Source of the DNA: a virus | Taxonomy: Duplodnaviria > Caudoviricetes | Length of the DNA: 64,000 nucleotides | Direction: 5' to 3' (one strand) | IMG/VR virus record: IMGVR_UViG_3300031524_000008 | Span: 614 to 64,613 of that record | Shown here: in pieces, positions 34,334 to 47,241 of the stretch | Layout: each line of letters opens with the position of its first letter | Numbering within the stretch: the stretch's first letter is position 1 | Made by a program: the position numbers and the translations under genes | The notes under the pieces: model-generated | Told to the model about the DNA's origin: nothing | The model's input: the letters and a program-made list of their open reading frames with translations, nothing else | Databases searched by the model: none

Positions 34334-34408
34334 TGGTACTTCGGATAGGATTTGCACCTATATATCACGGACATCAACCGTGCGCCCTGCTAGTTAGACG
34401 ACCGAAGC
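34334..34408 (-). tRNA. tRNA-Ile(GAU)
   Basis: loop UUGAUGU. Confidence 0.8.
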
Positions 34409-34459
34409 ATATCGTAGAAGACTCAGCTAGTTGTAATTACCAGCAGTATCTACGAAAAA

Positions 34460-34533
34460 TGGTGGGCTTACGGAGAGTTGCGCTCCGATTAAACGTTTCA
34501 CAAACGCTTTCCTTACTCTTAGGATATAAGCCC
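34460..34533 (-). tRNA. tRNA-His(GUG)
   Basis: loop UUGUGAA, encoded G-1. Confidence 0.82.
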
Positions 34534-34749
34534 CATATGTTTATCGCAACCAACGCATAATTCCGATTTATGCGTTAGAGCGAATAAAACTGCGGACAGA
34601 CTCAATTTTTCTTTTGTCTCCGTTAGCGTATTCAATTAAAGCTTTCGCGGTATTTGAATTCGTGCCAAAGGAAGTAATAGGAACGGCATTTGGTCTGTCG
34701 GCAATTAATGCGTCCCAAAGTTGTGCGAATCTTGTGTATTTCATAAAAT

Positions 34750-34906
34750 TTAAATCGTCGCGACCCGATTCTCTCCAACTGACGAAGGTTAGAGAAATTC
34801 GTTCTATTTTTCAGCCTCGTTCCTTTCGGACGTATCTTGTTAGATACACCATTCGGTTCCGCTGACCTTTCGAACTCGGCTTGTGCCGTTGCTTCTCGCG
34901 TTTAAA
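34750..34906 (-). ncRNA. putative structured ncRNA, unknown class
   Basis: terminal stem UUUAAA-CGCGA / UCGCG..UUUAAA, internal GAAA hairpins. Confidence 0.45.
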
Positions 34907-35010
34907 GCAATATTCTTAGTAGTTAAGGAAGTTGTTTAAGCGAGGATTTTACTCCATCGTAAACACCTTGATTATATTTTACACTTACTGTTTAGTAAGT
35001 CAATAATTAA

Positions 35011-35087
35011 TGGCCTGTACGGTCGGATTCGAACCGACAATCTCCAAGGCGTAATCGCTAGGTGTTTTACCGTTCAACCACGTACAT
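35011..35087 (-). tRNA. tRNA-like RNA with ~9-nt anticodon loop
   Basis: canonical D and T arms; loop CGAUUACGC. Confidence 0.6.
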
Positions 35088-35094
35088 GACAAAT

Positions 35095-35169
35095 TGGAGG
35101 CGGGTATCGGAATTGCACCGATGTATAATGGGTTTGCAAGCCACGGCCTTACTACTTGGCTAACCCGCC
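35095..35169 (-). tRNA. tRNA-Cys(GCA)
   Basis: loop UUGCAAA, U73. Confidence 0.85.
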
Positions 35170-35247
35170 ATTAAGCAGCCAACTTCACGGAGTTGGTGGC
35201 GTCCGTACAATCGGGCGCTGGTCGCATTGCGTCCTCTGCTCTAACGA

Positions 35248-35321
35248 TGGTATCGCATGAGGGTTACGCTCCCTCTTATGCAAGTTGAGAACCTGCTGTC
35301 CTACTATTAGACGAATGCGAC
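35248..35321 (-). tRNA. tRNA-Glu(CUC)
   Basis: loop UUCUCAA. Confidence 0.87.
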
Positions 35322-35326
35322 ATAAA

Positions 35327-35402
35327 TGGCACCGATGACAGGACTCGCACCTGCTTTTGTACAGCTTGAAAGGCTGTTGAGTTGCTCTTACTCATCACCG
35401 GC
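35327..35402 (-). tRNA. tRNA-Glu(UUC)
   Basis: loop CUUUCAA. Confidence 0.82.
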
Positions 35403-35410
35403 ATTGAATT

Positions 35411-35492
35411 TGGTAGGCGTGACAGGATTCGCACCCGCATGTCTTTCGACGGCTGCTTCTAAGGCAACTGTGTATACATTCCACCACACACC
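35411..35492 (-). tRNA. tRNA-Leu(UAG)
   Basis: loop CUUAGAA, V arm. Confidence 0.87.
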
Positions 35493-35496
35493 TAAA

Positions 35497-35575
35497 TGGC
35501 TCCTGCTCGTGGTAACGCTCCACGCTAAATCTTGGTTAACAGCCAAGCGGTTGTCACTATGACGCCTCAACAGGA
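35497..35575 (-). tRNA. tRNA-Asn(GUU)
   Basis: loop CUGUUAA. Confidence 0.82.
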
Positions 35576-35581
35576 ATAAAA

Positions 35582-35654
35582 TGGCTCGCACTGCTGCATC
35601 CGTAGTGCAGCTACTTCCCCTAACGCGGGGATGTTTTAGATAAACTAAGTGCGA
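35582..35654 (-). tRNA. Asn-like tRNA with 6-nt loop (GC-GUU-A)
   Basis: U1-A72, G73, perfect stems. Confidence 0.6.
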
Positions 35655-35659
35655 ATAAA

Positions 35660-35733
35660 TGGTCGGAAATGAAGGTTACGCTCCCTCGTTTTGTCGGTGT
35701 AAACGACCCGTTCTACTATTGAACTAATCTCCG
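35660..35733 (-). tRNA. tRNA-Val(UAC)
   Basis: loop UUUACAC. Confidence 0.85.
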
Positions 35734-35774
35734 TAATTGCGTTGGGCCATCCAGCCAACGCTGCCGTCCCTAAC

Positions 35775-35849
35775 TGGTTGTCCCACAAGGTAACGCTCCC
35801 TGTTCTCTCGGTTCAAAGCCGAGGGTAATAACTTCTATACGATAGGACA
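35775..35849 (-). tRNA. tRNA-Gln(UUG)
   Basis: loop CUUUGAA. Confidence 0.87.
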
Positions 35850-35857
35850 GTAAATAA

Positions 35858-35933
35858 TGGTGTCTCGACAGGGAATTGCACCCCGAATTCTAGTTTCGAA
35901 GACTAGCGTGATGGTCTGTTTCACTACCAAGAC
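35858..35933 (-). tRNA. tRNA-Arg(UCG)
   Basis: loop CUUCGAA. Confidence 0.87.
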
Positions 35934-36264
35934 ATTTGCGCGTTTACGGGCGCACCCGATTCTGACAACCTAGAATATCAGACGATTTTTAGGAGGCGGA
36001 TACAAGGTGACTTGTACCCTCGACCAAGGATTTATCTAGTAAAAATGTGTTCGAATATAAGGAGTTGCACCCATGTATCTGCGTCTTCTGGACTTATCAC
36101 TGGATAATAGAGAGACGCACGTAACTTTATCAACGTCCGATTTTCACTATTGACTAACCCATAGTTGATTATGAGTTTTCGCTCTTAGCGGCATTCATCA
36201 AATTACCAATGGTAAATGCGGTCGGCACAGAATTGTATTGTCTTACTCTATGATACTATCAAAC

Positions 36265-36382
36265 TGGTCACGACGATTGGATTTGCACCAATAGTGTTCT
36301 GCTACTCCATATTACCGCAGCTTTATGCATCTTGGATGGCTTCGAAGGCCAACGCCTTTCTCTATCTTTTGGCTACATCGTG
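36265..36382 (-). tRNA. tRNA with UCG anticodon and ~43-nt variable region
   Basis: 118 nt, all four arms intact. Confidence 0.65.
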
Positions 36383-36384
36383 AT

Positions 36385-36460
36385 TGGATGTCTCACTAGG
36401 ATTCGCACCTAGACTGAATGGTTCAAGGCCACTAGTGCTGAACTGTTACACTATGAGACA
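36385..36460 (-). tRNA. tRNA-Gln(UUG)
   Basis: loop CCUUGAA (C33). Confidence 0.82.
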
Positions 36461-36466
36461 ATCAAA

Positions 36467-36544
36467 TGGTCGAGCGTGTCGGATTCGCACCGCGACTCAA
36501 GCTTTTTTCGAAAGCCCGTATGTTACTGTTACAACACACGCTCG
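36467..36544 (-). tRNA. tRNA-like RNA with extended anticodon stem
   Basis: CGGGCUU-UCGAAAA-AAGCUUG. Confidence 0.6.
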
Positions 36545-36550
36545 ATTAAA

Positions 36551-36635
36551 TGGTGCGCCGAGAAAGAATTTGCACTTTCACAGCTAATAGCGGGAGTTTT
36601 ACAGACTCTTGGGTTCACTCGTACCCAGCCGACGC
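36551..36635 (-). tRNA. tRNA-Tyr(GUA)
   Basis: loop CUGUAAA, V arm. Confidence 0.82.
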
Positions 36636-36703
36636 AACTAACCCTGACTGGTGCGCGGCGAGAATCAACTCGACAGAGACGCGTTCAGGGTTTTGGTTAA
36701 TTA

Positions 36704-37132
36704 TTAATAAATGATGACGTTCATATACTCAGGCTCAACCTTAGCAAGTCGGTGTGCCATGCTCGTTGTAGTATAAACATCGAAGACGTAAGCTTTTCCG
36801 TGACTTGCTTTCTTTGCTGTCACTGCTCGTCCCCTGTCCTGAATTAAGAAATGCTCACTTGGCAACACATACTTCAAAGAAGGTATGTCAATGTGAGTCT
36901 CAAATGGAAAATCGGGATGGCCCGCAACTGTCACGCCCATATGAGCGCGGCGAACTTGAGGGTCAGCTACTCGTGAACCCCACTTGTCTTCACCTACATG
37001 GTAGTAGGTAATTCGAGCTACGATTGTTCTCGGCTTATTGTATCCGAACTTGTGACGAGAAAACCAACTGGATGCTGGACTACTACAAGTTAGGAATAAC
37101 ATAGTTAATACGATTGCTATTACTTTTTTCAT
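36704..37132 (-). CDS. secreted 3D-domain (lytic transglycosylase-like) protein
   Basis: signal peptide; ITYY, GVTVA, QDRG.AV, FDVY. Confidence 0.7.
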   Translation of the reverse strand: MKKVIAIVLTMLFLTCSSPASSWFSRHKFGYNKPRTIVARITYYHVGEDKWGSRVADPQVRRAHMGVTVAGHPDFPFETHIDIPSLKYVLPSEHFLIQDRGRAVTAKKASHGKAYVFDVYTTTSMAHRLAKVEPEYMNVIIY

Positions 37133-37191
37133 TGCTTTCCTTTCATTTTTTGGGTGATTGGAGAGCAGTCCGACATACTAACTCTCTGAGA

Positions 37192-37323
37192 TGGTGAGTT
37201 TGATAGGATTTGCACCTATAAGGCAACTCTCGACGCTTCAATTCGTCCGTTTGCCACCAGTCTAGGGAAGCTTGAAGGACTTCCTTTGTAACCAGCGCGT
37301 CTGCTAATTTCGCCACAACGCTC
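37192..37323 (-). tRNA. Leu-like tRNA with 22-nt anticodon-loop insertion and enlarged V arm
   Basis: Leu-type D arm; UA-CAA-[22 nt hairpin]-AG. Confidence 0.6.
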
Positions 37324-37327
37324 AACA

Positions 37328-37403
37328 TGGCGGATAGGACGGGTATCGCGCCCGCTTAAACTTGATTGACAATCAAGTATTGATACTTTTCAAACTCCTA
37401 TCC
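37328..37403 (-). tRNA. tRNA-Asp(GUC)
   Basis: loop UUGUCAA, G73. Confidence 0.82.
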
Positions 37404-37408
37404 AAAAT

Positions 37409-37565
37409 TGGTGGGCAAGGAAGGATTTTAACCCCCGGTGTTCGATTAGCTGTTGATAGCGCCAGCAGGAGGTTTATTCATGCTTATTTCTCCTGTCGCC
37501 ACCACATACTAATTTCTATTCCAGCTTAGATGCTGGTGTCTTTCGTCTCTCTTGACTACTCACCC
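37409..37565 (-). ncRNA. 157-nt tRNA-like RNA with ~80-nt variable domain
   Basis: acceptor, D arm, CCAGC-AUCUAA-GCUGG, T-like arm, CCA. Confidence 0.65.
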
Positions 37566-37665
37566 AAAAGCTATATCGGGCTAACCCGTTACATGGTCAC
37601 TAGGAGTAAAGCCGCTATTGAAAGACGGACAATGTACCCTTGCGGGCCGTTTCTCTTTGATGTAA

Positions 37666-37739
37666 TGGCGGGAGTAAGGGGTTACGCTCCCCTGCTAAAT
37701 GCTCGACAGGCACTCGTGCTACTATTACACCACACTCCC
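37666..37739 (-). tRNA. tRNA-Asp(GUC)
   Basis: loop CUGUCGA. Confidence 0.87.
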
Positions 37740-37763
37740 ATTTTCATAAACAGTTCTTTTTTA

Positions 37764-37838
37764 TGGTTGCAGCATGACGAGTCTCACGTCAGCCTCTCCC
37801 ATGAACGCGGGAGTGTACTAATTTTATACTATACTGCG
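37764..37838 (-). tRNA. initiator-like (C1.A72) tRNA with 6/8-nt anticodon loop
   Basis: CUCCC-GCGUUCAU-GGGAG. Confidence 0.55.
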
Positions 37839-37914
37839 TGGTTTCAGAAGTTGGAGTCGAACCAACTATCTCAACGGTTATGAGCCGCGAATGAATTCCG
37901 TTTCACTCTTCTGA
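37839..37914 (-). tRNA. tRNA-Met(CAU), probably initiator
   Basis: loop CUCAUAA, GG D-loop and UUCGA T-loop. Confidence 0.8.
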
Positions 37915-37989
37915 TGGTCAGATACCCGAAGGTTGCATTCGGTATTTCCTACACCCCAAGTAGGCGGATTACTGTCTTCCTCGTATCTG
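37915..37989 (-). tRNA. tRNA-Pro(GGG)
   Basis: loop UUGGGGU. Confidence 0.85.
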
Positions 37990-37993
37990 ATTT

Positions 37994-38090
37994 TGGTTAC
38001 AGGGGCCGGTAACGCTCCGACTACCTCTTGGTTATCTCGTTGGCCTGAAAAAGCCATGAGCCAAGCAAGCTACTTTTGCTCCACCCTGCG
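37994..38090 (-). tRNA. tRNA-fMet(CAU) with 22-nt intron-like insertion
   Basis: C1.A72; CU-CAU-[GGCUUUUUCAGGCCAACGAGAU]-AA. Confidence 0.75.
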
Positions 38091-38095
38091 ATAAA

Positions 38096-38169
38096 TGGTC
38101 GGGAATGATGGTAACGCTCCATCGCCACACCGCCCCAAACGGCGCGTCCTACTATTAGACTAATTCCCG
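38096..38169 (-). tRNA. tRNA-Pro(UGG)
   Basis: loop UUUGGGG. Confidence 0.87.
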
Positions 38170-38174
38170 AAAAA

Positions 38175-38249
38175 TGGTCGCTACAGAGGCGTTTGCATCC
38201 TCTTTCTAGGCTTATGAAACCTGAGTCCTACTACATGAACGATGCAGCG
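38175..38249 (-). tRNA. tRNA-Met or Ile2 (CAU)
   Basis: loop UUCAUAA. Confidence 0.8.
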
Positions 38250-38302
38250 ATAAAAAACACTCACCAAATTACGCTTTACTAAGAGGCGTGGCGAGTTTGA
38301 TA

Positions 38303-38377
38303 TGGTGCTCGTAGGGAGATTCGCACTCCCACTGTCAACGTTCTCAACGTTGCTTCTCTGCGTTGGAATATACGAGC
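38303..38377 (-). tRNA. tRNA with GAG (Leu) anticodon and short variable loop
   Basis: loop UUGAGAA, 75 nt. Confidence 0.78.
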
Positions 38378-38381
38378 AAAA

Positions 38382-38455
38382 TGGTGGCACCGACTGGAAT
38401 CGTCCAGTATTTCCCGCAATTCTAGGCGGGACGTTCTACATTGAACTACGGTGCA
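38382..38455 (-). tRNA. tRNA-like RNA with 8-nt loop and shortened T-loop
   Basis: CCCGC-CUAGAAUU-GCGGG. Confidence 0.55.
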
Positions 38456-38501
38456 TCTTTCCAAGCGTGGGGCATAGTATAGTCGCTCAAAACACACGCT
38501 A

Positions 38502-38885
38502 TTAACACAAAATTCTGTCATCTAACCTCTTATACCTAAATAAGTGCGTTAGAGTATAAGCTATAAAGAAAACGTCAGTTATTCTTCCCGCCCAATCCGC
38601 TGATTGATTATCTTTTAAATACAGTCCAATAATCAAAAAATTCGAAATTAACAATATTGCAATTGATACAGCAATGCTAACTTTGTAGGATTTGTACCTA
38701 CAATTAATAAGGCCCGCCGCTCCTACGACAAGGAGGAAAAGCTGCCAGCCTATTGTATTTCTCAAATCTGGAAAATACATAATGGACCGATGATGAAGAT
38801 GCAATGCCAACGTAAATAGCGCAATAACAAACATTTTAGTAGATAGGAAGGCGTATACCGTCCTCGCTGATAGATTCATTTTCAT
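38502..38885 (-). CDS. 4-TM membrane protein
   Basis: same architecture as 24591 and 25697; GTGTAA-N9-ATG. Confidence 0.7.
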   Translation of the reverse strand: MKMNLSARTVYAFLSTKMFVIALFTLALHLHHRSIMYFPDLRNTIGWQLFLLVVGAAGLINCRYKSYKVSIAVSIAILLISNFLIIGLYLKDNQSADWAGRITDVFFIAYTLTHLFRYKRLDDRILC

Positions 38886-38907
38886 ATATCTACTTTACAC
38901 GTTATTT

Positions 38908-38964
38908 TGGTGGACCGTGAGGCGCTTGCAAGGATTCGTCGCCCCCTATGGTACATGACGGCCC
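38908..38964 (-). ncRNA. 57-nt mini tRNA-Ala-like RNA
   Basis: GGGCCGU/ACGGUCC acceptor with G3.U70, A73, CCA. Confidence 0.55.
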
Positions 38965-39023
38965 ACGTAAATTTTAATTTAGCAAACATAATCTGCCAAG
39001 CTGATTTTAAACAGGAAGTAAAA

Positions 39024-39098
39024 TGGTTGGCATAGAGAATTTTGCAATCTCGACCTATCGCTTATCAAGCGAGTGCTCTGCTTCTGAGCTACATGCCA
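39024..39098 (-). tRNA. tRNA-Ile(GAU)
   Basis: loop UUGAUAA. Confidence 0.87.
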
Positions 39099-39553
39099 AT
39101 CTTGAATTGCTTGAGTAGGTCTATTACTTGTTGCTTCGAAAAGCCATTCTTGCCTAAGTTAACAAAGACGCATACGAATTCAACATTCCCCTTAATATAT
39201 CCTTTTGAAGAGTCGATACGGTCAAGTGATGCGGTATTTGGTTGTGCTCTCTTATTAGGATGCGGCAAAACTAGCTCTACGTCAGTATAAGCACATTTAC
39301 CATTTTGGATTTGCCAAATAGATTCCAAATATTCTTTAGTTATAGAGCATTCTTTAGGTCTGGAACGAGCGTTTTTTCGGGCAAAAAGAAGTATTGATTT
39401 GAATGGGTCAAATGATAACGCTCTATCTGCACCCGCGCATTTTTCATCACAGAACATTGATGCTTTCCCTAGACGGAGACGGCGGTTATACTCTTTGATT
39501 TCCTTATCAAAGGGCTTACCGCATGTTGCGCAAACTAAAGTAATCGTTCTCAT
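39089..39553 (-). CDS. His-Me finger (HNH-like) endonuclease within the tRNA array
   Basis: CATC, FCDEKC, QNGKCAYT, SLDRIDSSKGYIKGNV. Confidence 0.8.
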   Translation of the reverse strand: MRTITLVCATCGKPFDKEIKEYNRRLRLGKASMFCDEKCAGADRALSFDPFKSILLFARKNARSRPKECSITKEYLESIWQIQNGKCAYTDVELVLPHPNKRAQPNTASLDRIDSSKGYIKGNVEFVCVFVNLGKNGFSKQQVIDLLKQFKIGM

Positions 39554-39593
39554 GCTCGCTTTTACACGCAGCGGTGGAGAACGGGAACAAAAT

Positions 39594-39669
39594 TGGTGGA
39601 CCTACTCGGTAACGCTCCGAGTCTTTCGCATTGCAAGTGCGATGTGCTATCTTTTATCACTATAAGCCC
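39594..39669 (-). tRNA. tRNA-Ala(UGC)
   Basis: loop CUUGCAA, G3.U70. Confidence 0.88.
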
Positions 39670-39775
39670 AATTAAACTACTAACATAATCTCTACGGCTG
39701 GCTGCGACGATTGTAGTCACCAAAAGCCTACACTATGTTGTAGTTCGAGTTGCCGAAGTATCTAATCGCGGCAAA

Positions 39776-39964
39776 TTACCAATGATGCCATAGCGGGGCA
39801 GAGCCGCCACTAATAACATCGAGAGCAAAACTGAGCAATTCAAAAAGTGCCAACAGGAAGAAAATCCCGCCGACAAGATACTTTGCCCATTGAATTGTTA
39901 TGTATGTCCACGCAACCCATGCAATGAGTGCGAACAACGCTGTATAGAATAGTAATATAATCAT
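39776..39964 (-). CDS. small 2-TM membrane protein
   Basis: GTGTAA-N8-ATG at 39964; hydrophobic. Confidence 0.65.
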   Translation of the reverse strand: MIILLFYTALFALIAWVAWTYITIQWAKYLVGGIFFLLALFELLSFALDVISGGSAPLWHHW

Positions 39965-39983
39965 ACTACTCTTTACACCCAAA

Positions 39984-40052
39984 TGGCTCGATAGTTCAGA
40001 ATACCGCACTGCTTCGGATATTATCGCCTTCTCAGGCCATCTGTCCCATCGA
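39984..40052 (-). ncRNA. degenerate tRNA-like element
   Basis: acceptor-like stem, T-like arm, CCA. Confidence 0.35.
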
Positions 40053-40070
40053 GAGGGCAGACGAATTAAA

Positions 40071-40144
40071 TGGCACGCATCCAAGGACTTGCACCCTGAC
40101 GAATGGTTTTGGAGACCATCATGCTTCTGTTACACCAGACGCGT
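40071..40144 (-). tRNA. tRNA-Trp(CCA)
   Basis: loop CUCCAAA, G73. Confidence 0.88.
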
Positions 40145-40146
40145 AT

Positions 40147-40225
40147 TGGCTCAATGTCGAGGGTTCGAACCTCGTTCCCCCCGCTTTTTACAGCCGGGAA
40201 TTTTAACCAGTTAAACTAACAAAGA
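40147..40225 (-). tRNA. tRNA-like RNA with enlarged anticodon loop
   Basis: canonical GG and UUCGA; loop ~GCUGUAAAAAG; weak acceptor. Confidence 0.55.
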
Positions 40226-40302
40226 TGGTCGCCACCGGACGTTATTCTCGTCTTTCTTCGGCCTTCATGTGGCCGCTGTTCTAATATGTTGAACTAATGG
40301 CG
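40226..40302 (-). tRNA. tRNA-like RNA, loop ACAUGAA (no U33)
   Basis: cloverleaf with atypical T-loop, CCA. Confidence 0.55.
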
Positions 40303-40304
40303 AT

Positions 40305-40378
40305 TGGGGCAAAGGGTGGGATTTTAACCCACGTTTCCGCTTTTAAGGGCGACGTTCTGAACGCTAAACTACCTTCGC
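40305..40378 (-). tRNA. tRNA-like RNA with 8-nt loop CCUUAAAA
   Basis: cloverleaf, C73, CCA. Confidence 0.55.
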
Positions 40379-40390
40379 ATGGTACTAAAA

Positions 40391-40465
40391 TGGAGCGGGT
40401 AGGGGAATTCGCATCCCCACGCAAGCGTTGGCAACGCCCGATGCTAGCTATTACATCATACCCGC
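40391..40465 (-). tRNA. tRNA-Gly(GCC)
   Basis: loop UUGCCAA, U73. Confidence 0.88.
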
Positions 40466-40466
40466 A

Positions 40467-40531
40467 TGGCGCTTCGGTTTACCGAATTCTCTCTCATACA
40501 GTTGAGAGCGTTTTAGTTATTAAACTAGCGC
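40467..40531 (-). ncRNA. miniature tRNA-like RNA
   Basis: short acceptor, D arm, CUCUCA-ACUGUA-UGAGAG, 4-nt T-loop, CCA. Confidence 0.5.
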
Positions 40532-40779
40532 AAAAATTGGGGATAGCACACGTTTGACGGCGTGCTATCCTTTCCAAAAACTAACACCTATTCAGAGTTC
40601 CGCGCCACTCTAGGTGGTTTGGTAAGCCGGATTGCTCTTTTCGAGGGTGTTGACCGGACATTTGTTCCATTCAGGCTGGAACTCTAAAAGCGCCTTCTGA
40701 GTTTCTTTCGACGGCCTCCCTCTTCGGGTCGGTGTTCCATCGTTTCCACTATATGTTCTAAAAAATCTGTTTTGCGACT

Positions 40780-40815
40780 AAAAAACCCGCTGTCTTTTTC
40801 TGAGAGCAAGCGGGT
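40780..40815 (-). terminator. intrinsic terminator of the putative attenuator upstream of the tRNA array
   Basis: ACCCGCU...AGCGGGU followed by a U run. Confidence 0.8.
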
Positions 40816-40845
40816 CGTCGTCTTTCCTATCTGGCTTGCTACTCT

Positions 40846-40971
40846 CTAATCTGCTGTATCTCCCGGCTTTTCCTCAGAGGTCAGATAGGCAGACCATCTT
40901 TGGGCGTCACACCCGCCTATTTCGAGGCTCGGCTGACTATATGTAAAGTTTCTATTTAAAATCGGTTTCAT
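40846..40971 (-). CDS. putative 41-aa attenuation leader peptide
   Basis: MKPILNRNFTYSQPSLEIGGCDAQRWSAYLTSEEKPGDTAD*, starts just after the promoter; stop abuts the antiterminator strand. Confidence 0.6.
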   Translation of the reverse strand: MKPILNRNFTYSQPSLEIGGCDAQRWSAYLTSEEKPGDTAD

Positions 40972-40982
40972 CGTTATACTAT

Positions 40983-41069
40983 ATCTTACACTCTGTTTCG
41001 TCTTTTGTCAACTTTTTCTGTAAGATTTTCTTTGTTTCTTCACTCTACCTCAGTTTTTTTCGTTGTCAA
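40983..41069 (-). promoter_or_regulatory. tandem sigma70-type promoters for the tRNA operon
   Basis: TTGACA(41011)-N17-TAAGAT and a second TTGACA(41069)...TAGAGT. Confidence 0.75.
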
Positions 41070-41126
41070 CAGAGTTTTTCGTTTTCTTTTTGGTTTCGAT
41101 TCACTCTGTTTGTTTCTAAGGTTCCT

Positions 41127-41675
41127 CTATCCTACTGCATTTTGGTCTTTCGTCAACAGCTTTTTCAAAAATTCTTCAAGTCTTGCGGAATCTTCTCGGT
41201 TGTGGGGGTTAAAAGTTGCTAAATCGAAGCGAGGAATTGCTTTTGTGCCAGCGATTCTCCATCCGTGACCTGTTCCCCCAAAGCCTTGTTTTGAATGATT
41301 CAGAAAAGCAATACACGCATTAGCCCTAGAGAGAATTCCGGCATTTCTGTTCATCATCTGCTTTGCGCCTTTTGAAAGCTGGTCGTAAACAGGATGATGG
41401 GCACGAGCTATGAACTCCCACTCGGGATTGTCCTGCCACGTAACCAAATTCTTTTCGACAATCAGTTCTTCGTTATATGTCTTCCAAGGAAGATAAAGAA
41501 TCACATGGGATGGACTAACACGATTTCCGCCACGGGCAAAGGCGGCGTCAGAACCTAAAGCGTTTCCCGTCGCAATATAACCTCCTGATAAAACGATGAC
41601 CTCGCCTATTTTTTCCATAATAGCAGCAGTCCATAAGGAAATATCACGAGAACCTATACATGCAATTCTTACCAT
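41127..41675 (-). CDS. DprA/SLOG-family protein
   Basis: ACIGSR, TGNALGSDAAF, RN, GGTG. Confidence 0.75.
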   Translation of the reverse strand: MVRIACIGSRDISLWTAAIMEKIGEVIVLSGGYIATGNALGSDAAFARGGNRVSPSHVILYLPWKTYNEELIVEKNLVTWQDNPEWEFIARAHHPVYDQLSKGAKQMMNRNAGILSRANACIAFLNHSKQGFGGTGHGWRIAGTKAIPRFDLATFNPHNREDSARLEEFLKKLLTKDQNAVG

Positions 41676-41677
41676 AA

Positions 41678-42343
41678 TTAATGCCCTGATAAAGTATTCT
41701 TATCGTGATGGTCTATTACAACAGTTTGCTTTCCCCTCATAATCTCCATTACATCCTGAAATGACACGGGGCCACCAAAGTTGTCGATGCCGCAATCGAG
41801 AGCTTTATCATCAAGAGCTTTTGGATTACGCCCTTCATCGTTACCGTGACTATGGCCGCTCAACGCAATAGAGCCGTGCTGCATTTCATCCCAAATACGA
41901 AATGGAAAGTGCGAAGCAACATAAGGCACACCATCAATGCGTCCAAGTACATAGTCGCCCAAAAACATTACTTTATTACCATACGCTAAAGGATATACCT
42001 CAACTAACGCGCTTCCATACTGTCGAAGGACTTCACTCTTATATACGGCTTTCACGCCGCTATTATGGTTTCCCCATAGTAAATAGATGTACCCATTTAG
42101 CTCTGAAAGTAATTGCTTAAAGCGCGAACCATCAGGGTCGTTGAATACAAAATCACCAAGACAAAGAACGTTATCGTCCTTTCCTACAAGGTTATTCCAA
42201 TTCTTTTTTACACCCTCGTCATGCGATTGAATATCTGAGTAGCCCCGAGGCTTCCACAAGAATTCGCGGTCATGGTGAAAGTGTGTGTCTGACACAATCC
42301 ATAATGGGGTTTTTTTAGTATTAAAATTTACGTGTTGTGACAT
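41678..42343 (-). CDS. calcineurin-like metallophosphoesterase
   Basis: SDTHF, LGD, GNHN, GHSHG. Confidence 0.9.
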   Translation of the reverse strand: MSQHVNFNTKKTPLWIVSDTHFHHDREFLWKPRGYSDIQSHDEGVKKNWNNLVGKDDNVLCLGDFVFNDPDGSRFKQLLSELNGYIYLLWGNHNSGVKAVYKSEVLRQYGSALVEVYPLAYGNKVMFLGDYVLGRIDGVPYVASHFPFRIWDEMQHGSIALSGHSHGNDEGRNPKALDDKALDCGIDNFGGPVSFQDVMEIMRGKQTVVIDHHDKNTLSGH

Positions 42344-42344
42344 A

Positions 42345-42794
42345 TTATTCTACATTGCATACGAATCCAAACTCACCAACGGTAGGAATTACGAAATTGT
42401 TAAATTGCTTTTCAATTACATCTTCGGGTACTTGACGCACTCGACCCTTATTTCTCAATTTAAGAACGTCTAATGGCACTCGAAAAACATACGCTGCTGT
42501 TTCTGCGTCACATCGTTTTGCTATGTCTAGGAAATCTTTTCGCGCTTTCAAATGATAATTGCAAGCGTCTATTAAAACAGATTTACCCTGTTTCAACAGA
42601 TGCTCGGTAACTGCATATACTGTTTGAAAAACCTTTCCGCTAACGGTTTGGTCGCCTTCACCATTACCAACGATTGCGCGAAACTCATCAGTGGAAAGAC
42701 GTACGACCGAAGGGTTAAGTGAGACATAATCTTTCGAAAAGCGAGTCTTGCCAGATGCAACGCATCCGACCATAAGTATTAATGTTGGTTTCAT
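42345..42794 (-). CDS. polynucleotide kinase-like P-loop kinase (AAA_33)
   Basis: GCVASGKT, STDEFR, IDA, RN..R...VPEDVI. Confidence 0.85.
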   Translation of the reverse strand: MKPTLILMVGCVASGKTRFSKDYVSLNPSVVRLSTDEFRAIVGNGEGDQTVSGKVFQTVYAVTEHLLKQGKSVLIDACNYHLKARKDFLDIAKRCDAETAAYVFRVPLDVLKLRNKGRVRQVPEDVIEKQFNNFVIPTVGEFGFVCNVE

Positions 42795-42825
42795 TTCGTT
42801 TATATTATGCGATTTTCAAATAATG

Positions 42826-44013
42826 TCAATCACTTTCATCTTTATCCGCAGCGCCACCGAATGAGCGATTGCAGTCGAACTGAGCATAATTTGGTCGGCC
42901 AGTCGCGAACGTTTTCTCAATTCCATCCACGGTTTCCGTCAACTTTCCAGTGTATCCGTAAAAGAAAATCGTGGCAGTCTTACCAACATAATTTTCAGGA
43001 TGTACCCAAATATCCTTCGCCTGTTCAAACGTTCCCTTGATATTAGCCTTGAAAGTACGCCCGTCTTTCATCAAACACACAACTTTGCCAGCGGTGCCAG
43101 CGCGATTTCCGATACCTTCTTCAACCCCGACGATTTTAAATTCTTCGTCGTCAGTAGGCTTTACCTTCAAAAGATTCGATGAGCGTTTGTTCTCATAGGG
43201 AGCGCCCAAAATACGAACGATAGAACCTTCTTCCCCAGCGTTAATATCATCAGCGAACATCCTCATTACATCCTCGTGAGTATTCGCAACACGCGTAAAG
43301 ACCTGACAGTAATATGGGTTGGAAGAGAAATTCTTTTTGATTGCAGCGGAACGTGCGCGATAGTTAGTTTCCTTCTCAACACCATCATACCCATATCCAT
43401 CATAAATATAAAACCGTACCAGCTTCTCGCTTTTATCAAGGTCAGCTTGCGTGATATGAACGGTCTTACGAATTAGCTTCATTACTTCATTAAGCTTCTG
43501 ACCAAAATTAGGAGCGTATAGTTCTCCATCAATCACCGCATCGGGCCATAAAGCAAAAAACGATTTCATAGACTCAAAAATATGAGGCACAGAAATATAA
43601 CGTTCACCCTTACGGGAAAACAAACCATGGCGCGTAGCAACACAACGGCCACCGTTGAATTTTAGTTGGACGCCAACCGGATATACCACTTTATCCAAGC
43701 GTTCGAGATACTTTTTTGCAAGCATCGGCTGTACGAACTGAACATTGTCAATATCCGCGATGTTTTCGAAGTAGCCACCTGATTTGAGTTGTTTATCATA
43801 TCGTGCTTGAGCCTCTTTCATTGCTTGGTCTTCGGGAGACGTTTCGTTGCCGCGACCGATGTTCTTTCCTGCACAAACTGTGGGTTTTGCACGAACAGAT
43901 TGACCGTTTTGTTGCCCCGAAACGGTAAAAAAACTATTTCCATCTACAAAAATTTGCCATTCTTGTACCGCGTTTGTTGATGTCCGAGAATAAAGTTTAG
44001 GAAATGTGTGCAT
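42826..44013 (-). CDS. ATP-dependent DNA ligase
   Basis: PMLA, KFNGGR, IDGELY, YIYD, EGSIVR, KRSSNLLKVK, OB fold. Confidence 0.9.
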   Translation of the reverse strand: MHTFPKLYSRTSTNAVQEWQIFVDGNSFFTVSGQQNGQSVRAKPTVCAGKNIGRGNETSPEDQAMKEAQARYDKQLKSGGYFENIADIDNVQFVQPMLAKKYLERLDKVVYPVGVQLKFNGGRCVATRHGLFSRKGERYISVPHIFESMKSFFALWPDAVIDGELYAPNFGQKLNEVMKLIRKTVHITQADLDKSEKLVRFYIYDGYGYDGVEKETNYRARSAAIKKNFSSNPYYCQVFTRVANTHEDVMRMFADDINAGEEGSIVRILGAPYENKRSSNLLKVKPTDDEEFKIVGVEEGIGNRAGTAGKVVCLMKDGRTFKANIKGTFEQAKDIWVHPENYVGKTATIFFYGYTGKLTETVDGIEKTFATGRPNYAQFDCNRSFGGAADKDESD

Positions 44014-44043
44014 GAGACTACTTTAAGGAGTATTTTACAAAAG

Positions 44044-44265
44044 TCAAGTATTTTTTAAGGATGCAAGTCCTGTAGTCCACCATGCGCCGTCTTTGAATCT
44101 TAGGTACGTAAACATACCGTTTTTAGCTTCCAAGTAAGCTAATGTCAAATCGTCTGGCTCAATTCTTTTAACTGTAAAAGATGTAAGCGAAAGTTCTCCG
44201 TTATCTTTAACGGCTATATCTATTTCTTCTCCTAGCGTTATTGTATCTTGTATTTTCGAACTCAT
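44044..44265 (-). CDS. hypothetical protein
   Basis: ATGA overlap. Confidence 0.55.
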   Translation of the reverse strand: MSSKIQDTITLGEEIDIAVKDNGELSLTSFTVKRIEPDDLTLAYLEAKNGMFTYLRFKDGAWWTTGLASLKNT

Positions 44266-44783
44266 AAAATTTGATGTTTTATAAATAAATCTCTAACATT
44301 CATTGTTATTTTACCAAGATAATTAGTACCTATTCCGTCACATATACCCCATGTAGTATCCCTCCAAGAGTTCGTCTCTTCTAGGTAACGCGCTCCGGTT
44401 TCAAGCAGCTTTGCGCGTAAGTCGCGATGTCGAAAAAATTTGTCGAACACAACCGCTAGCATTACATCCTTACGTACTCCTTTAATTTCCCAATCGTCGC
44501 GCATTTTAACGCTCTTTCCCCATTTTTTTACTTCTCTTGCTGGCATCGCAGCTACAATCTCATACTGTTTTTCATACCATTCTTTATAATCGTCTTCATC
44601 ATCAGGAATCACAGGAATCAACTTTGCAAATTGAAATGCGTTCTCGGTACGTCTAAACCATCTACCACCATAATAAACAGAAGCATCATAAAAATTAGAC
44701 AAAAAACGATACGGCCCGAAGAACCCACAAACTTCGTGCTCAGTGTGTCTGGCATATGAAGGTATTTCGGTATCGTAGTTCAT
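44262..44783 (-). CDS. NADAR (YbiA-like) protein
   Basis: FLSNFY, ENAFQFAK, KF, LLETG, DTTWG, NYLGK. Confidence 0.9.
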   Translation of the reverse strand: MNYDTEIPSYARHTEHEVCGFFGPYRFLSNFYDASVYYGGRWFRRTENAFQFAKLIPVIPDDEDDYKEWYEKQYEIVAAMPAREVKKWGKSVKMRDDWEIKGVRKDVMLAVVFDKFFRHRDLRAKLLETGARYLEETNSWRDTTWGICDGIGTNYLGKITMNVRDLFIKHQIL

Positions 44784-44784
44784 A

Positions 44785-45429
44785 TTATTTTTTATGGAAT
44801 GCCAATATTCTATCTAACCACTCATTCCATTGTTCTATAGATAGGTTGCTTTTAGCTTTATTGCATAATCCACACGCTGGTACACAATTTTCGCGGATGT
44901 ATCCAACCTCGTTATTTATTCTATCTATTCCATTATAGATATATGGACCGTTCGCATCACAAGAATTCATACTTTGGTAGGGTTTAACTCCACAATAACA
45001 GCATCGGGAACTTGTAATAGTTCTAACGTCTTCATCTATGAGAGTAAACAATAGATTTCTCCTTTTTGCGGCGGCTTTATATTGTCTGACTAATCTTGCG
45101 AAAGAAGCTTCTCCAAATGGCTTTCGCAAACTCGCACCAAAATCAAAATGGTCCGGGTACATTTTATTGAATGTTCCGCATCCAGAAATTTCGGGGTGCT
45201 TTCTTTTATTCCTGTTTATTGTTTCTTTGTTTAATTCGTAGTATTTTAAGTTTTTTGCATCGCGGGCTTCTTTGTGTGATATATAGTATTCATTCACCCG
45301 CTGTTTATTACAAGCTTTACAAACCGAACACAACCCGTCTTTCTTCTGTTTGTCTTTATGAAACCTTTTTATAGACTGTTTTTTATCACACTTACTACAT
45401 TTTTTTGATTGCTGATTTCGGGATTTCAT
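44785..45429 (-). CDS. HNH-like homing endonuclease
   Basis: CSKC..CKAC; NGIDRINNEVGY..NCVPACGLCN.AK. Confidence 0.82.
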   Translation of the reverse strand: MKSRNQQSKKCSKCDKKQSIKRFHKDKQKKDGLCSVCKACNKQRVNEYYISHKEARDAKNLKYYELNKETINRNKRKHPEISGCGTFNKMYPDHFDFGASLRKPFGEASFARLVRQYKAAAKRRNLLFTLIDEDVRTITSSRCCYCGVKPYQSMNSCDANGPYIYNGIDRINNEVGYIRENCVPACGLCNKAKSNLSIEQWNEWLDRILAFHKK

Positions 45430-46072
45430 CGTGTTCTATAGTTTTTTTGAAGGAAAGGTTTCCTGCTGTATGATACACAATTATACCTTCTGCGGGGAAA
45501 TTATTTTCTACCACGCCACCATTATGAATTGCCACGCTACCAAAACAAACGAGTGCGTCTAAAACTCTTTTGATTTGTACCGTATCGAACATGCCTTCGT
45601 AAAGGATGGGGACAACCCTACAGCACGCAGGCGCATATTCTTGCTTTTCCTTTAGAGGAGAGACTACGCCGTTGACGACAAATAGTGGACTTTCCGCTCC
45701 ACCGAGCATGACGGGAGACCAATCAAAATAAGCGTGCGGGCGCGTATCTACCCAACGACCCACGTTGAATAGCGAGAAATGCTTTTCCTTTTGACCGTAT
45801 CCACGTTGAATACCTGCGCCCCACCACTCACCATAATGACGACCGACTCCTAGGGCCATAAGTTCATCCTTATTAGCGTAGGCCCAGCGAGCAAAGCCAT
45901 AGTTGTCTTGCTCGGGCGTAATCCAACGAGTACGACTACCAACCAAAAACTCTCCTTCGTCTGTGATTACAATAGACGCGTTCGTACCGTCGATTTTTTC
46001 AGTCAACGACATTTTCCTCGACAGACGAGGCATCTTTGGGAATTCGACGAATTCATTATTTGCAATATTCAT
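45395..46072 (-). CDS. RNA ligase (Rnl2-like adenylyltransferase domain)
   Basis: FPKMPR, TEKIDGTNA, SRTR, GEWWG, VPILY, EGIIV. Confidence 0.8.
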   Translation of the reverse strand: MNIANNEFVEFPKMPRLSRKMSLTEKIDGTNASIVITDEGEFLVGSRTRWITPEQDNYGFARWAYANKDELMALGVGRHYGEWWGAGIQRGYGQKEKHFSLFNVGRWVDTRPHAYFDWSPVMLGGAESPLFVVNGVVSPLKEKQEYAPACCRVVPILYEGMFDTVQIKRVLDALVCFGSVAIHNGGVVENNFPAEGIIVYHTAGNLSFKKTIEHDEIPKSAIKKM

Positions 46073-46095
46073 GGTTCCCATTCTAGGCGGATTTT

Positions 46096-47241
46096 CTATT
46101 CCGTCAAGAACTTCCTCTCGCCCTTTAATCGAAGCCTCGACTTCTTCGTATCCAGTTCCTCCCAAAAGAGTTGCGCGTCCGTAGCAGAACTCATGCCACC
46201 CACGTACTCAAATGAATAGCAGAAGCGGTTTGACACAAGCCATTTTTTGTCACGAGTATCCAGCTTTCTAACTTTTCGGCTATGAGAGGTTTCTACCCAT
46301 TTCTCACTTTTGAGACGATACGCTATCATCGCAGGATGAATAGTCTTTGAGTAATACGTTCCTCCTCCAGCCCTAACCATGGAGCCAATATAATCAGAAA
46401 CTTTCACTCCAATCCCTAATCCTTGAAAGTCTGGCAATACAACAGTACGAGATTCGCGCCAGCAATCCTTTTTATAAGCATTAGGATGAGCGAGGGCGGC
46501 AGAGAAAGCTACGGGATTATCATTCCACGTAACTAAAAAACATCGCGCCCCTTTATTTATGTCAGCACTTAGATAGTGATAGTGTTTAAAAAGTTCCCAC
46601 GCTTCATATTTGCTTCGGAATACTTTAAGTGAAATTTCAGGTCGTCGAAGACTCCCACGCGGTAAAACGTGAGTCAGTCCCTCTGTAGGATTGTAAACCC
46701 AATCCGGTTGTAAAAATTCAATAATATCAGCGTGACAAGAAGCGACGACAACTTTCTTGTTAGTATTACGCACGTACTTTTGTAAAGCGTTCGAAGCGGA
46801 CTTAGCAACATTCCTATCTACTACCGAGGTAAATTCATCAATTAAAATAATCTCGCTCTCCTCTGACATCGCTCTAGCTACATTACATCGAAACTGCTCC
46901 CCATTACTTAATGCCTTGAAAGGACGAAGCCAAGCGGGTACATTCCCAAATCCTACAGCACAAAATAACTCTGTTGCCTTTTCTGGAGTTATGTAATCGA
47001 AGTTACTTATTACTGCTAATTCATCCCACACATACTCAGGAATTTTACCAAAAGTTTTCAGCAAGGTACTCTTACCGCTACCGCTTGGACCGTATATAAG
47101 TCCTATGTTCCAATTTTCAGGAGGAGTAATGTTATTAGTTATAATTGAAACACTTTCCTCGACATGGGGAACGTCAAACATCTGTTCTGCGACGGCTGTA
47201 TAATCGTCGTGAACAATAGGATATTTTAAAACAATATCCAT
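46096..47241 (-). CDS. ABC-type ATPase fused to a GNAT acetyltransferase
   Basis: GPSGSGKS, LSNGEQFR, IDEF; HYL, RTVVLPDFQGLGIG. Confidence 0.85.
   Translation of the reverse strand: MDIVLKYPIVHDDYTAVAEQMFDVPHVEESVSIITNNITPPENWNIGLIYGPSGSGKSTLLKTFGKIPEYVWDELAVISNFDYITPEKATELFCAVGFGNVPAWLRPFKALSNGEQFRCNVARAMSEESEIILIDEFTSVVDRNVAKSASNALQKYVRNTNKKVVVASCHADIIEFLQPDWVYNPTEGLTHVLPRGSLRRPEISLKVFRSKYEAWELFKHYHYLSADINKGARCFLVTWNDNPVAFSAALAHPNAYKKDCWRESRTVVLPDFQGLGIGVKVSDYIGSMVRAGGGTYYSKTIHPAMIAYRLKSEKWVETSHSRKVRKLDTRDKKWLVSNRFCYSFEYVGGMSSATDAQLFWEELDTKKSRLRLKGERKFLTE

What the first reader, a model, noticed from the sequence alone, without database searches (positions are those of the whole stretch)
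40780..41069. Leader-peptide attenuator gating the phage tRNA array
Seen on the minus strand: TTGACA-N17-TAAGAT promoter, a 41-codon ORF using 18 amino acids and 32 different codons, its TAG directly followed by AGAGUAGCAAGC, which can pair with GCUUGCUCUC in the 5' arm of a strong intrinsic terminator located before the first tRNA. A third helix CCUAUCUG/CAGAUAGG is also possible. Known: in trp/his attenuation a ribosome at the stop masks the antiterminator and upstream stalling allows readthrough. Inference: the leader samples many codons rather than one amino acid, so loss of almost any host tRNA induces the array. Caveat: 32 of 41 distinct codons is near random expectation, so the structural layout is the main evidence.
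Basis: partly seen in the sequence, partly recalled or inferred. Interest (0 to 1): 0.9.

Follow-up and report, generated by a model that had tools for sequence, protein, structure and literature searches.

The report
Possible ribosome-sensing terminator before phage tRNAs
Between three strong promoters and a phage's large tRNA gene array sit a 41-codon reading frame and a transcription stop signal whose RNA can fold in two exclusive ways, so it may switch tRNA production on when ribosomes stall; this rests on one sequence and folding models only.

Summary
The antiterminator pairing alone is no better than chance: 26% of 1000 composition-matched shuffles pair as well. Fold z-scores are weak, -1.0 to -1.8.

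The whole layout is rarer. A modelled ribosome lowers terminator probability only with its A site at codons 25-35. It does not do so at the stop codon or when absent. Of 298 shuffles, 3 reproduce this under loose criteria and 0 at native level.

No promoter lies between this terminator and the first tRNAs, so the array start depends on read-through.

Against:
- There is no codon enrichment.
- Coding potential is weak.
- The peptide has no homologue.
- The start codon lies 11 nt after the -10, where this phage's leaderless genes have 6-8.
- No relative close enough to compare could be fetched.

My odds are about 0.4 for a translation-coupled attenuator, with an ordinary small gene or a leaky terminator as rivals. 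The scan has noted similar claims on other phage DNA (unchecked AI notes).

The parts
41129..41156 (-). Promoter-like site P1 (TTGACG-16-TAGGAT). Its -10 hexamer overlaps the TAG stop of the DprA-like gene.
41042..41069 (-). Promoter-like site P2 (TTGACA-16-TAGAGT). No ATG follows it.
40983..41011 (-). The ATG lies 11 nt after the -10.
40846..40971 (-). 41-codon ORF plus TAG stop, the candidate leader peptide. The model stall window is codons 25-35, about 40899-40867.
40874..40889 (-). Segment 1. It lies inside the ORF and pairs with segment 2 (anti-antiterminator hairpin, -16.7 kcal/mol).
40826..40849 (-). Segment 2. It covers the stop codon and the 20 nt after it. Bases 40844-40834 form the 5' strand of the antiterminator, and 40833-40826 close the 1:2 hairpin.
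40780..40815 (-). Intrinsic terminator T1. The hairpin is 40815-40785 (-12.9 kcal/mol) and is followed by six U. Its 5' arm (40815-40802) is also the 3' strand of the antiterminator.
   Evidence: an RNA contig ends at 40790 with 14 non-templated A
40466..40779 (-). Spacer plus strongly structured RNA region (z -3.42) between T1 and the first tRNA. The 'second terminator' hairpin at 40570-40541 is an internal arm of this fold, and its U-run starts 4 nt after the stem.
40391..40465 (-). tRNA-Gly (GCC), the first ARAGORN tRNA of the array. Two odd-loop tRNAs and tRNA-Trp follow it.

Best explanation
T1 is a leader terminator (attenuator). It limits how much transcription from the tandem promoters P1-P3 runs on into the structured RNA and tRNA array.

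The most likely control is the position of a ribosome in the 41-codon ORF:
1. Without a ribosome, or with one that has reached codon 36 or the stop codon, segment 2 is either paired to segment 1 or covered. The terminator then forms and the RNA ends at about 40780-40790.
2. If the leading ribosome is held at about codons 25-35, it covers segment 1.
3. Segment 2 is then free to pair with the 5' arm of the terminator, and RNA polymerase reads through into the array.

Shown: the elements, their alternative pairings and energies, and the lack of another promoter before the first tRNAs.

Inferred: that the ORF is translated, that folding follows the model, and that read-through is regulated at all.

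The sensed signal would be slow decoding of a mixed set of ten different codons (Arg, Trp, Ser, Ala, Tyr, Leu, Thr, Glu, Lys), not shortage of one amino acid.
For: 1. All elements are present at the stated places.
2. Terminator and antiterminator hairpins are nearly isoenergetic, -12.9 against -12.6 kcal/mol.
3. Ribosome-mask scan. P(terminator core) is 0.60-0.62 with no ribosome and at codons 1-24 and 36-42. It is 0.035-0.29 at codons 25-35, where P(antiterminator) is 0.28-0.80. Across eight combinations of four footprint settings and two temperatures (37 or 15 C), low-terminator codons all fall within 24-35, apart from the stop codon in one combination (-12..+15 mask at 15 C).
4. Nascent-chain series: the 1:2 hairpin forms first, the equilibrium flips to the antiterminator once segment 3 is out, and it flips back once segment 4 is out.
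5. Shuffle controls. A drop in terminator probability as large as the native one occurred in 4 of 215 shuffles. ORF plus full logic occurred in 3 of 298 shuffles under loose criteria and 0 of 298 at native level.
6. No promoter-like site lies between 40980 and 40160, by the consensus scan or by a matrix built from 13 of this phage's own promoters. The Gly to Trp tRNA block therefore depends on read-through of T1.
7. Here the promoters lie upstream of the terminator. Elsewhere in the phage the order is terminator then promoter (14581/14573, 30018/30011).
8. The start region is A/U-rich and unpaired in the MFE. The phage's genes in general lack SD motifs, found at only 10 of 83, so the missing SD is not an argument against translation.
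9. One metatranscriptome contig covers 40926-40790 and then carries 14 non-templated A. This fits RNA that ended at T1, but it is a single contig of depth 2.
Against: 1. There is no enrichment of any codon: 32 distinct codons in 41, and 10 distinct codons among the 11 of the stall window. The array covers most amino acids, so a codon 'mirror' cannot be tested.
2. The antiterminator complementarity alone is matched by 26% of shuffles. Fold z-scores are only -1.0 to -1.8.
3. The ATG is 11 nt after the -10. In 15 of the 17 sites with an ATG 5-11 nt after the -10 the distance is 6-8 nt. A leader of 3-6 nt cuts leaderless initiation several-fold in Caulobacter reporters (PMC8459731, passages read).
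4. Coding potential is low. The log-likelihood is 2.5, against a mean of 8.4 (sd 3.7) for real 41-codon windows, and 32% of 186 small ATG ORFs score as high per codon.
5. The peptide has no true homologue. Only the peptide itself turned up in the word-indexed search. The 5 other hits in 1.84 billion representatives are long proteins of 458-1409 aa matched in 3-11 stretches at 33-43% identity. Only the top hit was aligned pairwise; there a 37%-identical match recurs in each Ig_7 repeat.
6. There is no comparative support. No DNA match was found in 50,697 phage records. Distant relatives with the neighbour gene place tRNAs directly behind their own promoters.
7. No similar module follows the four other promoter sites examined inside the array.
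8. The shuffle criteria were chosen after seeing the data. The control on natural terminators could not be run.
Confidence: 0.4

Rival explanations
1. Ordinary small transcription unit. P3 (helped by P1 and P2) expresses a short product and T1 is simply its terminator. The product is either the 41-residue peptide or a roughly 200-nt non-coding RNA. The array is fed by passive leak through T1. The alternative pairings are incidental.
For: - The phage is built from short units with a promoter directly before an ATG: 17 of 31 promoter-like sites have one. Tiny ORFs follow some promoters, for example 25 codons at 50163.
- The stop codon lies 30 nt before the hairpin, a usual gene-end distance. Termination is reported to be repressed only when the terminator is a few bp from the stop (PMC4824070, abstract read).
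- An ORF of this length starting so near the 5' end is itself unlikely by chance: 4 of 298 shuffles reach 41 codons.
- An RNA contig ends at T1.
Against: - Among shuffles that have an ORF, the switch-like layout is found in only 3 of 123.
- Coding potential is weak and there is no homologue.
- Three tandem promoters for one tiny product is unusual.
- The first tRNA block would have no promoter of its own.
- Rfam finds no known RNA family in the leader.
Confidence: 0.3
2. Constitutive partial terminator. P1-P3 drive the array and T1 merely lowers the flux by a fixed fraction. The ORF and the alternative helices are chance features of an A/G-rich leader.
For: - Fold z-scores are not significant.
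- The purine-rich leader pairs with the pyrimidine-rich terminator arm in 26% of shuffles.
- There is no regulatory codon pattern.
- The ATG spacing is off the phage norm.
Against: - The combined ORF plus switch layout occurs in 0-3 of 298 shuffles.
- An ORF of 41 or more codons occurs in 4 of 298 shuffles.
- The stop codon sits exactly at the 5' edge of the antiterminator strand.
Confidence: 0.2
3. Amber read-through. The phage's own tRNA with anticodon CUA (24036-24110) reads the leader's TAG. Ribosomes then translate on through T1 for 53 more codons, to the next in-frame TAG at 40686-40684. This prevents the hairpin from forming and gives positive feedback on array transcription.
For: - A tRNA with anticodon CUA is present.
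- The frame stays open from 40845 to 40687, and both stops are TAG.
- Terminators in the latter part of a coding region are reported to be repressed (PMC4824070, abstract).
Against: - An open extension of 53 or more codons follows 7.8% of 321 ORFs in this genome.
- None of the 13 long genes ending in TAG has an extension of 53 codons or more (longest 44), and TAG ends 10 of 83 predicted genes, so there is no sign of general recoding.
- A homology search of the extension could not be made.
Confidence: 0.05

Closest known systems
Leader-peptide transcription attenuators of amino-acid operons (trp, his, leu, phe; multivalent thr and ilvGMEDA). Recalled textbook knowledge; pheL paper PMC3082878 seen only in the search listing.
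   Same: A promoter-proximal short ORF, four RNA segments giving 1:2, 2:3 and 3:4 helices, and an intrinsic terminator. The stop codon lies at the edge of segment 2. In the model, termination occurs with no ribosome or with a ribosome at the stop codon, and read-through occurs with a ribosome on segment 1.
   Different: - There is no run of regulatory codons.
- The leader is 41 codons, longer than is usual.
- The regulated genes are tRNAs and structured RNAs, not biosynthetic enzymes.
- The host system appears SD-free and largely leaderless.
- No conservation is shown.
Anabaena trn operon, a long tRNA array that is silent in standard culture and activated under translational stress, with the repressor TrcR (PMC8421152 and PMC10272220; title and start of abstract seen in the listing).
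   Same: A large accessory tRNA array whose expression is proposed to respond to impaired translation.
   Different: Control there is by a transcriptional repressor protein, by the title of PMC10272220, not by a leader terminator. It is a cellular megaplasmid, not a phage.
Ribosome-stalling attenuators of macrolide resistance operons such as mef/mel (PMC4335068; search listing only).
   Same: A leader ORF and a terminator. Ribosome stalling, not amino-acid shortage as such, gives read-through.
   Different: There the stall is caused by a drug acting on a specific nascent peptide. No such peptide signal can be recognised here.
T-box riboswitches (Rfam RF00230; name recalled).
   Same: Terminator/antiterminator leaders that sense the tRNA state.
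   Different: No Rfam family other than tRNA matched within 40466-41200 at E up to 1. No specifier or T-box motif was looked for by hand.

Membership tests
Leader-peptide (ribosome-mediated) transcription attenuator | Short ORF close to the transcription start, upstream of the regulated genes | tested here: met
   41-codon ORF at 40971-40846. It starts 11 nt after the -10 of P3.
Leader-peptide (ribosome-mediated) transcription attenuator | The ORF is translated | not testable with these tools
   Indirect signs are mixed. The start region is unpaired and A/U-rich, and SD motifs are absent phage-wide. But the ATG spacing is off the norm and coding potential is weak.
Leader-peptide (ribosome-mediated) transcription attenuator | Intrinsic terminator between the ORF and the regulated genes | tested here: met
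   Hairpin 40815-40785 (-12.9 kcal/mol) plus U6. An RNA contig ends at 40790 (weak).
Leader-peptide (ribosome-mediated) transcription attenuator | Antiterminator helix mutually exclusive with the terminator | tested here: met
   10-bp helix 40844-40834 with 40811-40802, -12.6 kcal/mol. It dominates once segment 3 is out and segment 4 is not. Alone it is not beyond chance (26% of shuffles).
Leader-peptide (ribosome-mediated) transcription attenuator | Anti-antiterminator (1:2) with segment 1 inside the ORF and the stop codon near segment 2 | tested here: met
   Hairpin 40889-40826, -16.7 kcal/mol. The stop codon at 40848-40846 lies at the edge of segment 2.
Leader-peptide (ribosome-mediated) transcription attenuator | Regulatory codons enriched in the stall window | tested here: not met
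   Codons 25-35 hold 10 different codons for 9 amino acids. The whole ORF has 32 distinct codons in 41.
Leader-peptide (ribosome-mediated) transcription attenuator | ORF, stop position and alternative helices conserved or covarying in relatives | tested here: inconclusive
   No relative with a comparable leader could be obtained. The peptide has no homologue. Distant phages lack it.
Rho-independent (intrinsic) terminator | G+C-rich hairpin directly followed by a U-run | tested here: met
   The consensus scan did not list it.
Known Rfam leader or riboswitch families, including T-box | Covariance-model match | tested here: not met
   No non-tRNA match within 40466-41200 at E up to 1.

The most novel reading that the evidence does not exclude
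A phage uses a trp-style leader-peptide attenuator to gate its own tRNA and structured-RNA array. It is read on an SD-free, near-leaderless transcript and carries a mixed-codon stall window. The phage would therefore raise tRNA output when decoding in the infected cell slows, for example after host anticodon nucleases cut tRNAs. The RNA ligase and kinase genes just upstream fit that theme. A bolder addition: the phage's amber-suppressor tRNA reads the leader's TAG and drives ribosomes through the terminator, giving positive feedback.
Probability: 0.35. Interest if true: 0.75.

Novelty: new variant of a known kind. Interest (0 to 1): 0.5.

Why it matters
How phages regulate their tRNA arrays is largely unknown. 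The listings (15 of 183 and 12 of 146 papers shown; titles and abstract starts only) named no account of leader-peptide attenuation of tRNA genes.

If real, this would tie phage tRNA supply directly to the decoding state of the infected cell. It would link that supply to counter-defence against tRNA-cleaving host systems. It would also extend a classic amino-acid-sensing mechanism to a sensor of general decoding speed.

The case is directly testable with reporter fusions and 3'-end mapping. As it stands it is one sequence with model-based support only, and it is weaker than cases where leader codons match the array.

Tried and rejected
- DNA similarity of 40470-41130 to 50,697 phage records gave no match.
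- An exact-pattern scan of viral contigs for T1 gave 0 matches.
- The neighbour gene (DprA-like, 41675-41127) has protein relatives at 86% and 67% identity (P0001, P0002).
- Scans of viral and metagenome contigs returned only relatives of 57% identity or less: 7 and 29 loci.
- Of 17 loci checked for tRNAs, 4 have any (L011, L012, L015, L016).
- L011 and L016 show tRNAs directly behind their own promoters, with no ORF plus terminator leader. They are too distant to count against conservation.
- A pattern from the window's tRNA-Gly found one 417-kb phage (G003). It lacks the DprA-like gene. The leader before its first array tRNA has a promoter but no mini-ORF or U-run terminator. It is unrelated and so uninformative.
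- G001 and G002 hold only 1 and 5 tRNAs.
- A codon 'mirror' of the downstream tRNAs was tested after earlier notes on other phages suggested it. It is not testable here, because the leader uses 18 amino acids and the array covers most.
- The 'second terminator' at 40570-40541 was rejected as a terminator. It is an arm of a larger significant fold, and its U-run is 4 nt from the stem.
- A possible weak promoter just after T1 (a -10-like hexamer 7 nt before an ATG at 40743) was rejected. It did not score in either promoter scan.
- TAG recoding of the phage was rejected.
- The representative-library hits to long multi-stretch proteins (the top one an Ig_7 repeat protein) were rejected as summed weak matches.
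- RNA runs: depth and gaps of contigs were not used as evidence. No RNA contig was seen across 40438-40705, which proves nothing.
- Supplementary files of papers were not consulted.

Full report
SETTING. The window is almost all of a 64,613-base single-contig virus record. DNA runs that hold it are labelled peat metagenome. Genes from about 50.5 kb down to 0.3 kb lie on the minus strand.

Upstream of the finding, Pfam matches four genes:
- a T4 Rnl1-type RNA ligase (48266-49468)
- NADAR (44262-44783)
- an ATP-dependent DNA ligase (42826-44013)
- an AAA_33 kinase (42345-42794)

Two further ORFs follow. One of 221 residues (41678-42343) has no Pfam match. The other (41127-41675) also has no Pfam match here, but its relatives are annotated DprA-like.

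Downstream lies a tRNA-rich region. ARAGORN finds 24 tRNA genes, all on the minus strand, from 40465 to 24036. Rfam adds more.

THE OBSERVATION.
- The named promoter is at 41011-40983. It is the last of three tandem promoter-like sites (41156, 41069, 41011).
- The ORF runs 40971-40846, with 41 sense codons, 32 distinct codons, 18 amino acids and a TAG stop.
- The segment right after TAG (40845-40834) can pair with 40811-40802 inside the terminator's 5' arm.
- The third helix pairs 40889-40882 with 40833-40826.
- The terminator hairpin (40815-40785, then six U) is -12.9 kcal/mol and the antiterminator hairpin is -12.6.

There are two corrections. The terminator is moderate rather than strong. 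The first tRNA is 315 nt further on, behind a region that folds far better than its shuffles (z -3.42; 1 of 100 shuffles as good). The hairpin at 40570-40541, which a consensus scan calls terminator-like, is an arm of that fold. Its U-run starts 4 nt after the stem, so I do not count it as a second terminator.

IS IT MORE THAN CHANCE? Taken piece by piece, it is not.
- The 209-nt transcript has z -1.02 (29 of 200 shuffles fold as well).
- The 91-nt terminator region has z -1.76 (9 of 200).
- The 1:2 hairpin has z -0.96 (39 of 200).
- A duplex with the terminator arm as stable as the antiterminator arises in 26.1% of 1000 dinucleotide shuffles of the upstream 60 nt. Only 3.75% of 1066 natural 60-nt windows of the phage reach it. 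The leader is purine-rich and the arm is pyrimidine-rich.

Taken as a whole, it is rarer. I masked a 28-nt ribosome footprint at each codon and computed the probability of the 7 core terminator pairs.
- The probability is 0.61 with no ribosome.
- It is 0.60-0.62 with the A site at codons 1-24 and at 36 to the stop codon.
- It falls to 0.035-0.29 at codons 25-35, where the antiterminator reaches 0.28-0.80.

Low-terminator codons stay within 24-35 across eight combinations of four footprint settings and two temperatures, 37 or 15 C. With a mask reaching +15, the value at the stop codon falls to 0.58 at 37 C and 0.30 at 15 C.

A series of nascent lengths shows three stages. The 1:2 hairpin forms first. 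The equilibrium flips to the antiterminator when segment 3 is out (P 0.87-0.96). It returns to 1:2 plus terminator when segment 4 is out (P 0.92).

Shuffling the leader while keeping T1 gave these counts:
- A drop in terminator probability as large as the native one in 4 of 215 shuffles. A looser switch criterion was met in 26 of 215.
- An ATG ORF of 15 or more codons ending before T1 in 123 of 298 shuffles.
- The full logic (termination without a ribosome and at the stop codon, read-through at 3 or more consecutive codons) in 3 of 298.
- The full logic at native level (both probabilities at least 0.8) in 0 of 298.
- An ORF of 41 or more codons in 4 of 298.

These criteria were framed after seeing the data. 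Shuffles are also not natural sequence.

CONTEXT THAT BEARS ON FUNCTION. First, no promoter-like site lies between 40980 and 40160. That holds for the consensus scan and for a matrix built from 13 of the phage's own promoters, on which P1-P3 score 11.0-11.8. The first tRNA block is Gly, two odd-loop tRNAs and Trp. It therefore seems to depend on transcripts that pass T1.

Second, elsewhere in the phage the order is terminator then promoter then ATG (14581/14573, 30018/30011). Here three promoters come before the terminator.

Third, the phage has a striking expression grammar.
- Only 10 of 83 ORFs have an SD-like motif.
- 17 of 31 TTGAC-N16-18-TAnnnT sites have an ATG 5-11 nt after the -10, against 10.9% at random positions.
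- The distances are 6 nt (8 sites), 7 (5), 8 (2), 10 (1) and 11 (1).

This is the signature of leaderless mRNAs, described for Deinococcus-Thermus in PMC12340547 (abstract). The candidate ORF is the outlier at 11 nt. P3 transcripts would therefore carry a leader of 3-6 nt. In Caulobacter reporters each added 5' base roughly halves leaderless initiation (PMC8459731, passages). Transcripts from P1 and P2 would have long, A-rich, unpaired leaders instead. The missing SD is therefore neutral, and the spacing is a mild argument against efficient translation.

THE ORF AS A GENE.
- The codon log-likelihood is 2.5. Real 41-codon windows average 8.4 (sd 3.7), and 6.9% of them score as low or lower. Per codon, 32% of 186 small ATG ORFs score as high.
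- The word-indexed protein search found only the peptide itself.
- The exhaustive search of 1.84 billion representatives found the peptide itself plus 5 long proteins of 458-1409 aa, matched in 3-11 stretches at 33-43% identity. Only the top hit was aligned pairwise. There a single 37%-identical match recurs in each Ig_7 repeat and is summed. I do not take these hits as homologues.

A leader peptide needs no conserved protein sequence, so this fits an attenuator or a chance frame better than a functional small protein.

RNA EVIDENCE. Four metatranscriptome runs hold 7-8% of the words of 39500-43500. In one of the three that I laid, a 151-nt contig of depth 2 covers 40926-40790. It then carries 14 A that the DNA does not encode. 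Its end lies inside the 3' arm of T1. This fits RNA that ended at T1, was trimmed and was polyadenylated. It is one low-depth contig from one run, so it is a weak hint. It does not separate the explanations.

COMPARISON WITH RELATIVES.
- The 86% and 67% identical neighbour-gene relatives exist as proteins, but their contigs were not obtainable.
- The collections returned only relatives of 57% identity or less.
- Two of those, L011 and L016, have tRNAs next to the DprA-like gene, each directly behind a promoter and without a leader terminator.
- An unrelated 417-kb phage with 52 tRNA matches has no such module before its array.
- Within the window, the four other promoter sites in the array are not followed by a mini-ORF plus terminator.

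WHAT I CONCLUDE. I hold with fair confidence, about 0.6-0.7, that T1 is a leader terminator that gates transcription from P1-P3 into the array. That it is governed by ribosome position in the 41-codon frame I put at about 0.4. The geometry and energetics fit the classic model closely and are rare among shuffles. Translation is unproven, there is no codon signature, and there is no conservation.

In the model only about 11 of 41 codons matter, so the element would report slow decoding of a mixed set of codons at one place. It would not report the loss of almost any tRNA.

The rivals are an ordinary small transcription unit (0.3), a constitutive leaky terminator with a chance frame (0.2) and amber read-through (0.05). 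For the last, the phage's CUA tRNA would read the leader's TAG into a 53-codon open extension that runs through T1. Such extensions follow 7.8% of 321 ORFs, and there is no sign of TAG recoding.

KNOWN RELATIVES OF THE IDEA. It works like the trp/his/ilv leader-peptide attenuators (recalled) but fails their codon-enrichment criterion. The Anabaena trn array is activated under translational stress but has a repressor protein (PMC8421152 and PMC10272220, listing). The listings showed no paper on leader-peptide control of phage tRNA genes. I read titles and abstract starts only.

Earlier notes of this scan make the same kind of claim on other phages, there with leader codons that match the array. 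Those are unchecked AI notes and I did not count them as support.

Noticed in passing
whole window, e.g. 44047, 42829, 30011, 14573, 50773: Leaderless-style gene grammar. 17 of 31 TTGAC-N16-18-TAnnnT sites have an ATG 5-11 nt after the -10 (13 of them at 6-7 nt; chance about 11%). Only 10 of 83 ORFs have an SD-like motif. This points to a host and phage that initiate mostly without SD.
   Followed up: partly
40466-40779 (-): The 314 nt between T1 and tRNA-Gly fold far better than shuffles (-93.6 kcal/mol, z -3.42). A long closing stem abuts the tRNA. This is an unclassified structured RNA with no Rfam match.
   Followed up: partly
24036-24110 (-) and 40684-40848 (-): A tRNA with anticodon CUA (amber suppressor type; ARAGORN labels it Pyl) lies at the far end of the array. 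The leader ORF's TAG is followed by 53 open in-frame codons through the terminator, to another TAG. Such an extension occurs after 7.8% of 321 ORFs.
   Followed up: partly
40790 (-): One metatranscriptome contig (depth 2) ends inside the 3' arm of T1 and carries 14 non-templated A. This suggests a polyadenylated RNA 3' end.
   Followed up: no
14581/14573 and 30018/30011 (-): Hairpin plus T-run immediately followed by a promoter and a leaderless ATG. This is a recurrent terminator-promoter junction.
   Followed up: no
42345-49468 (-): RNA-repair-type genes lie upstream of the array: RNA_lig_T4_1 (48266-49468), AAA_33 kinase (42345-42794), ATP-dependent DNA ligase (42826-44013) and NADAR (44262-44783).
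   Followed up: partly
38259-38295 (-): Rfam abiF RNA match just under threshold (34 bits against a gathering score of 37; E 0.0077), between two tRNAs.
   Followed up: no
23036-23415 (-): No RNase P RNA (or any non-tRNA family) matched here at E up to 1 in the Rfam scan of 23000-43000. This bears on another first-stage note that reads this stretch as RNase P RNA.
   Followed up: no
50163-50060 (-): A promoter-like site with an ATG 6 nt after its -10 opens a 25-codon ORF between two genes. It is another promoter-proximal mini-ORF, here without a terminator.
   Followed up: no
39743-40369: RNA and DNA contigs from the peat runs differ from the window at 2-5% of positions in the tRNA region, so strain variants exist that could serve for a covariation test.
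   Followed up: no
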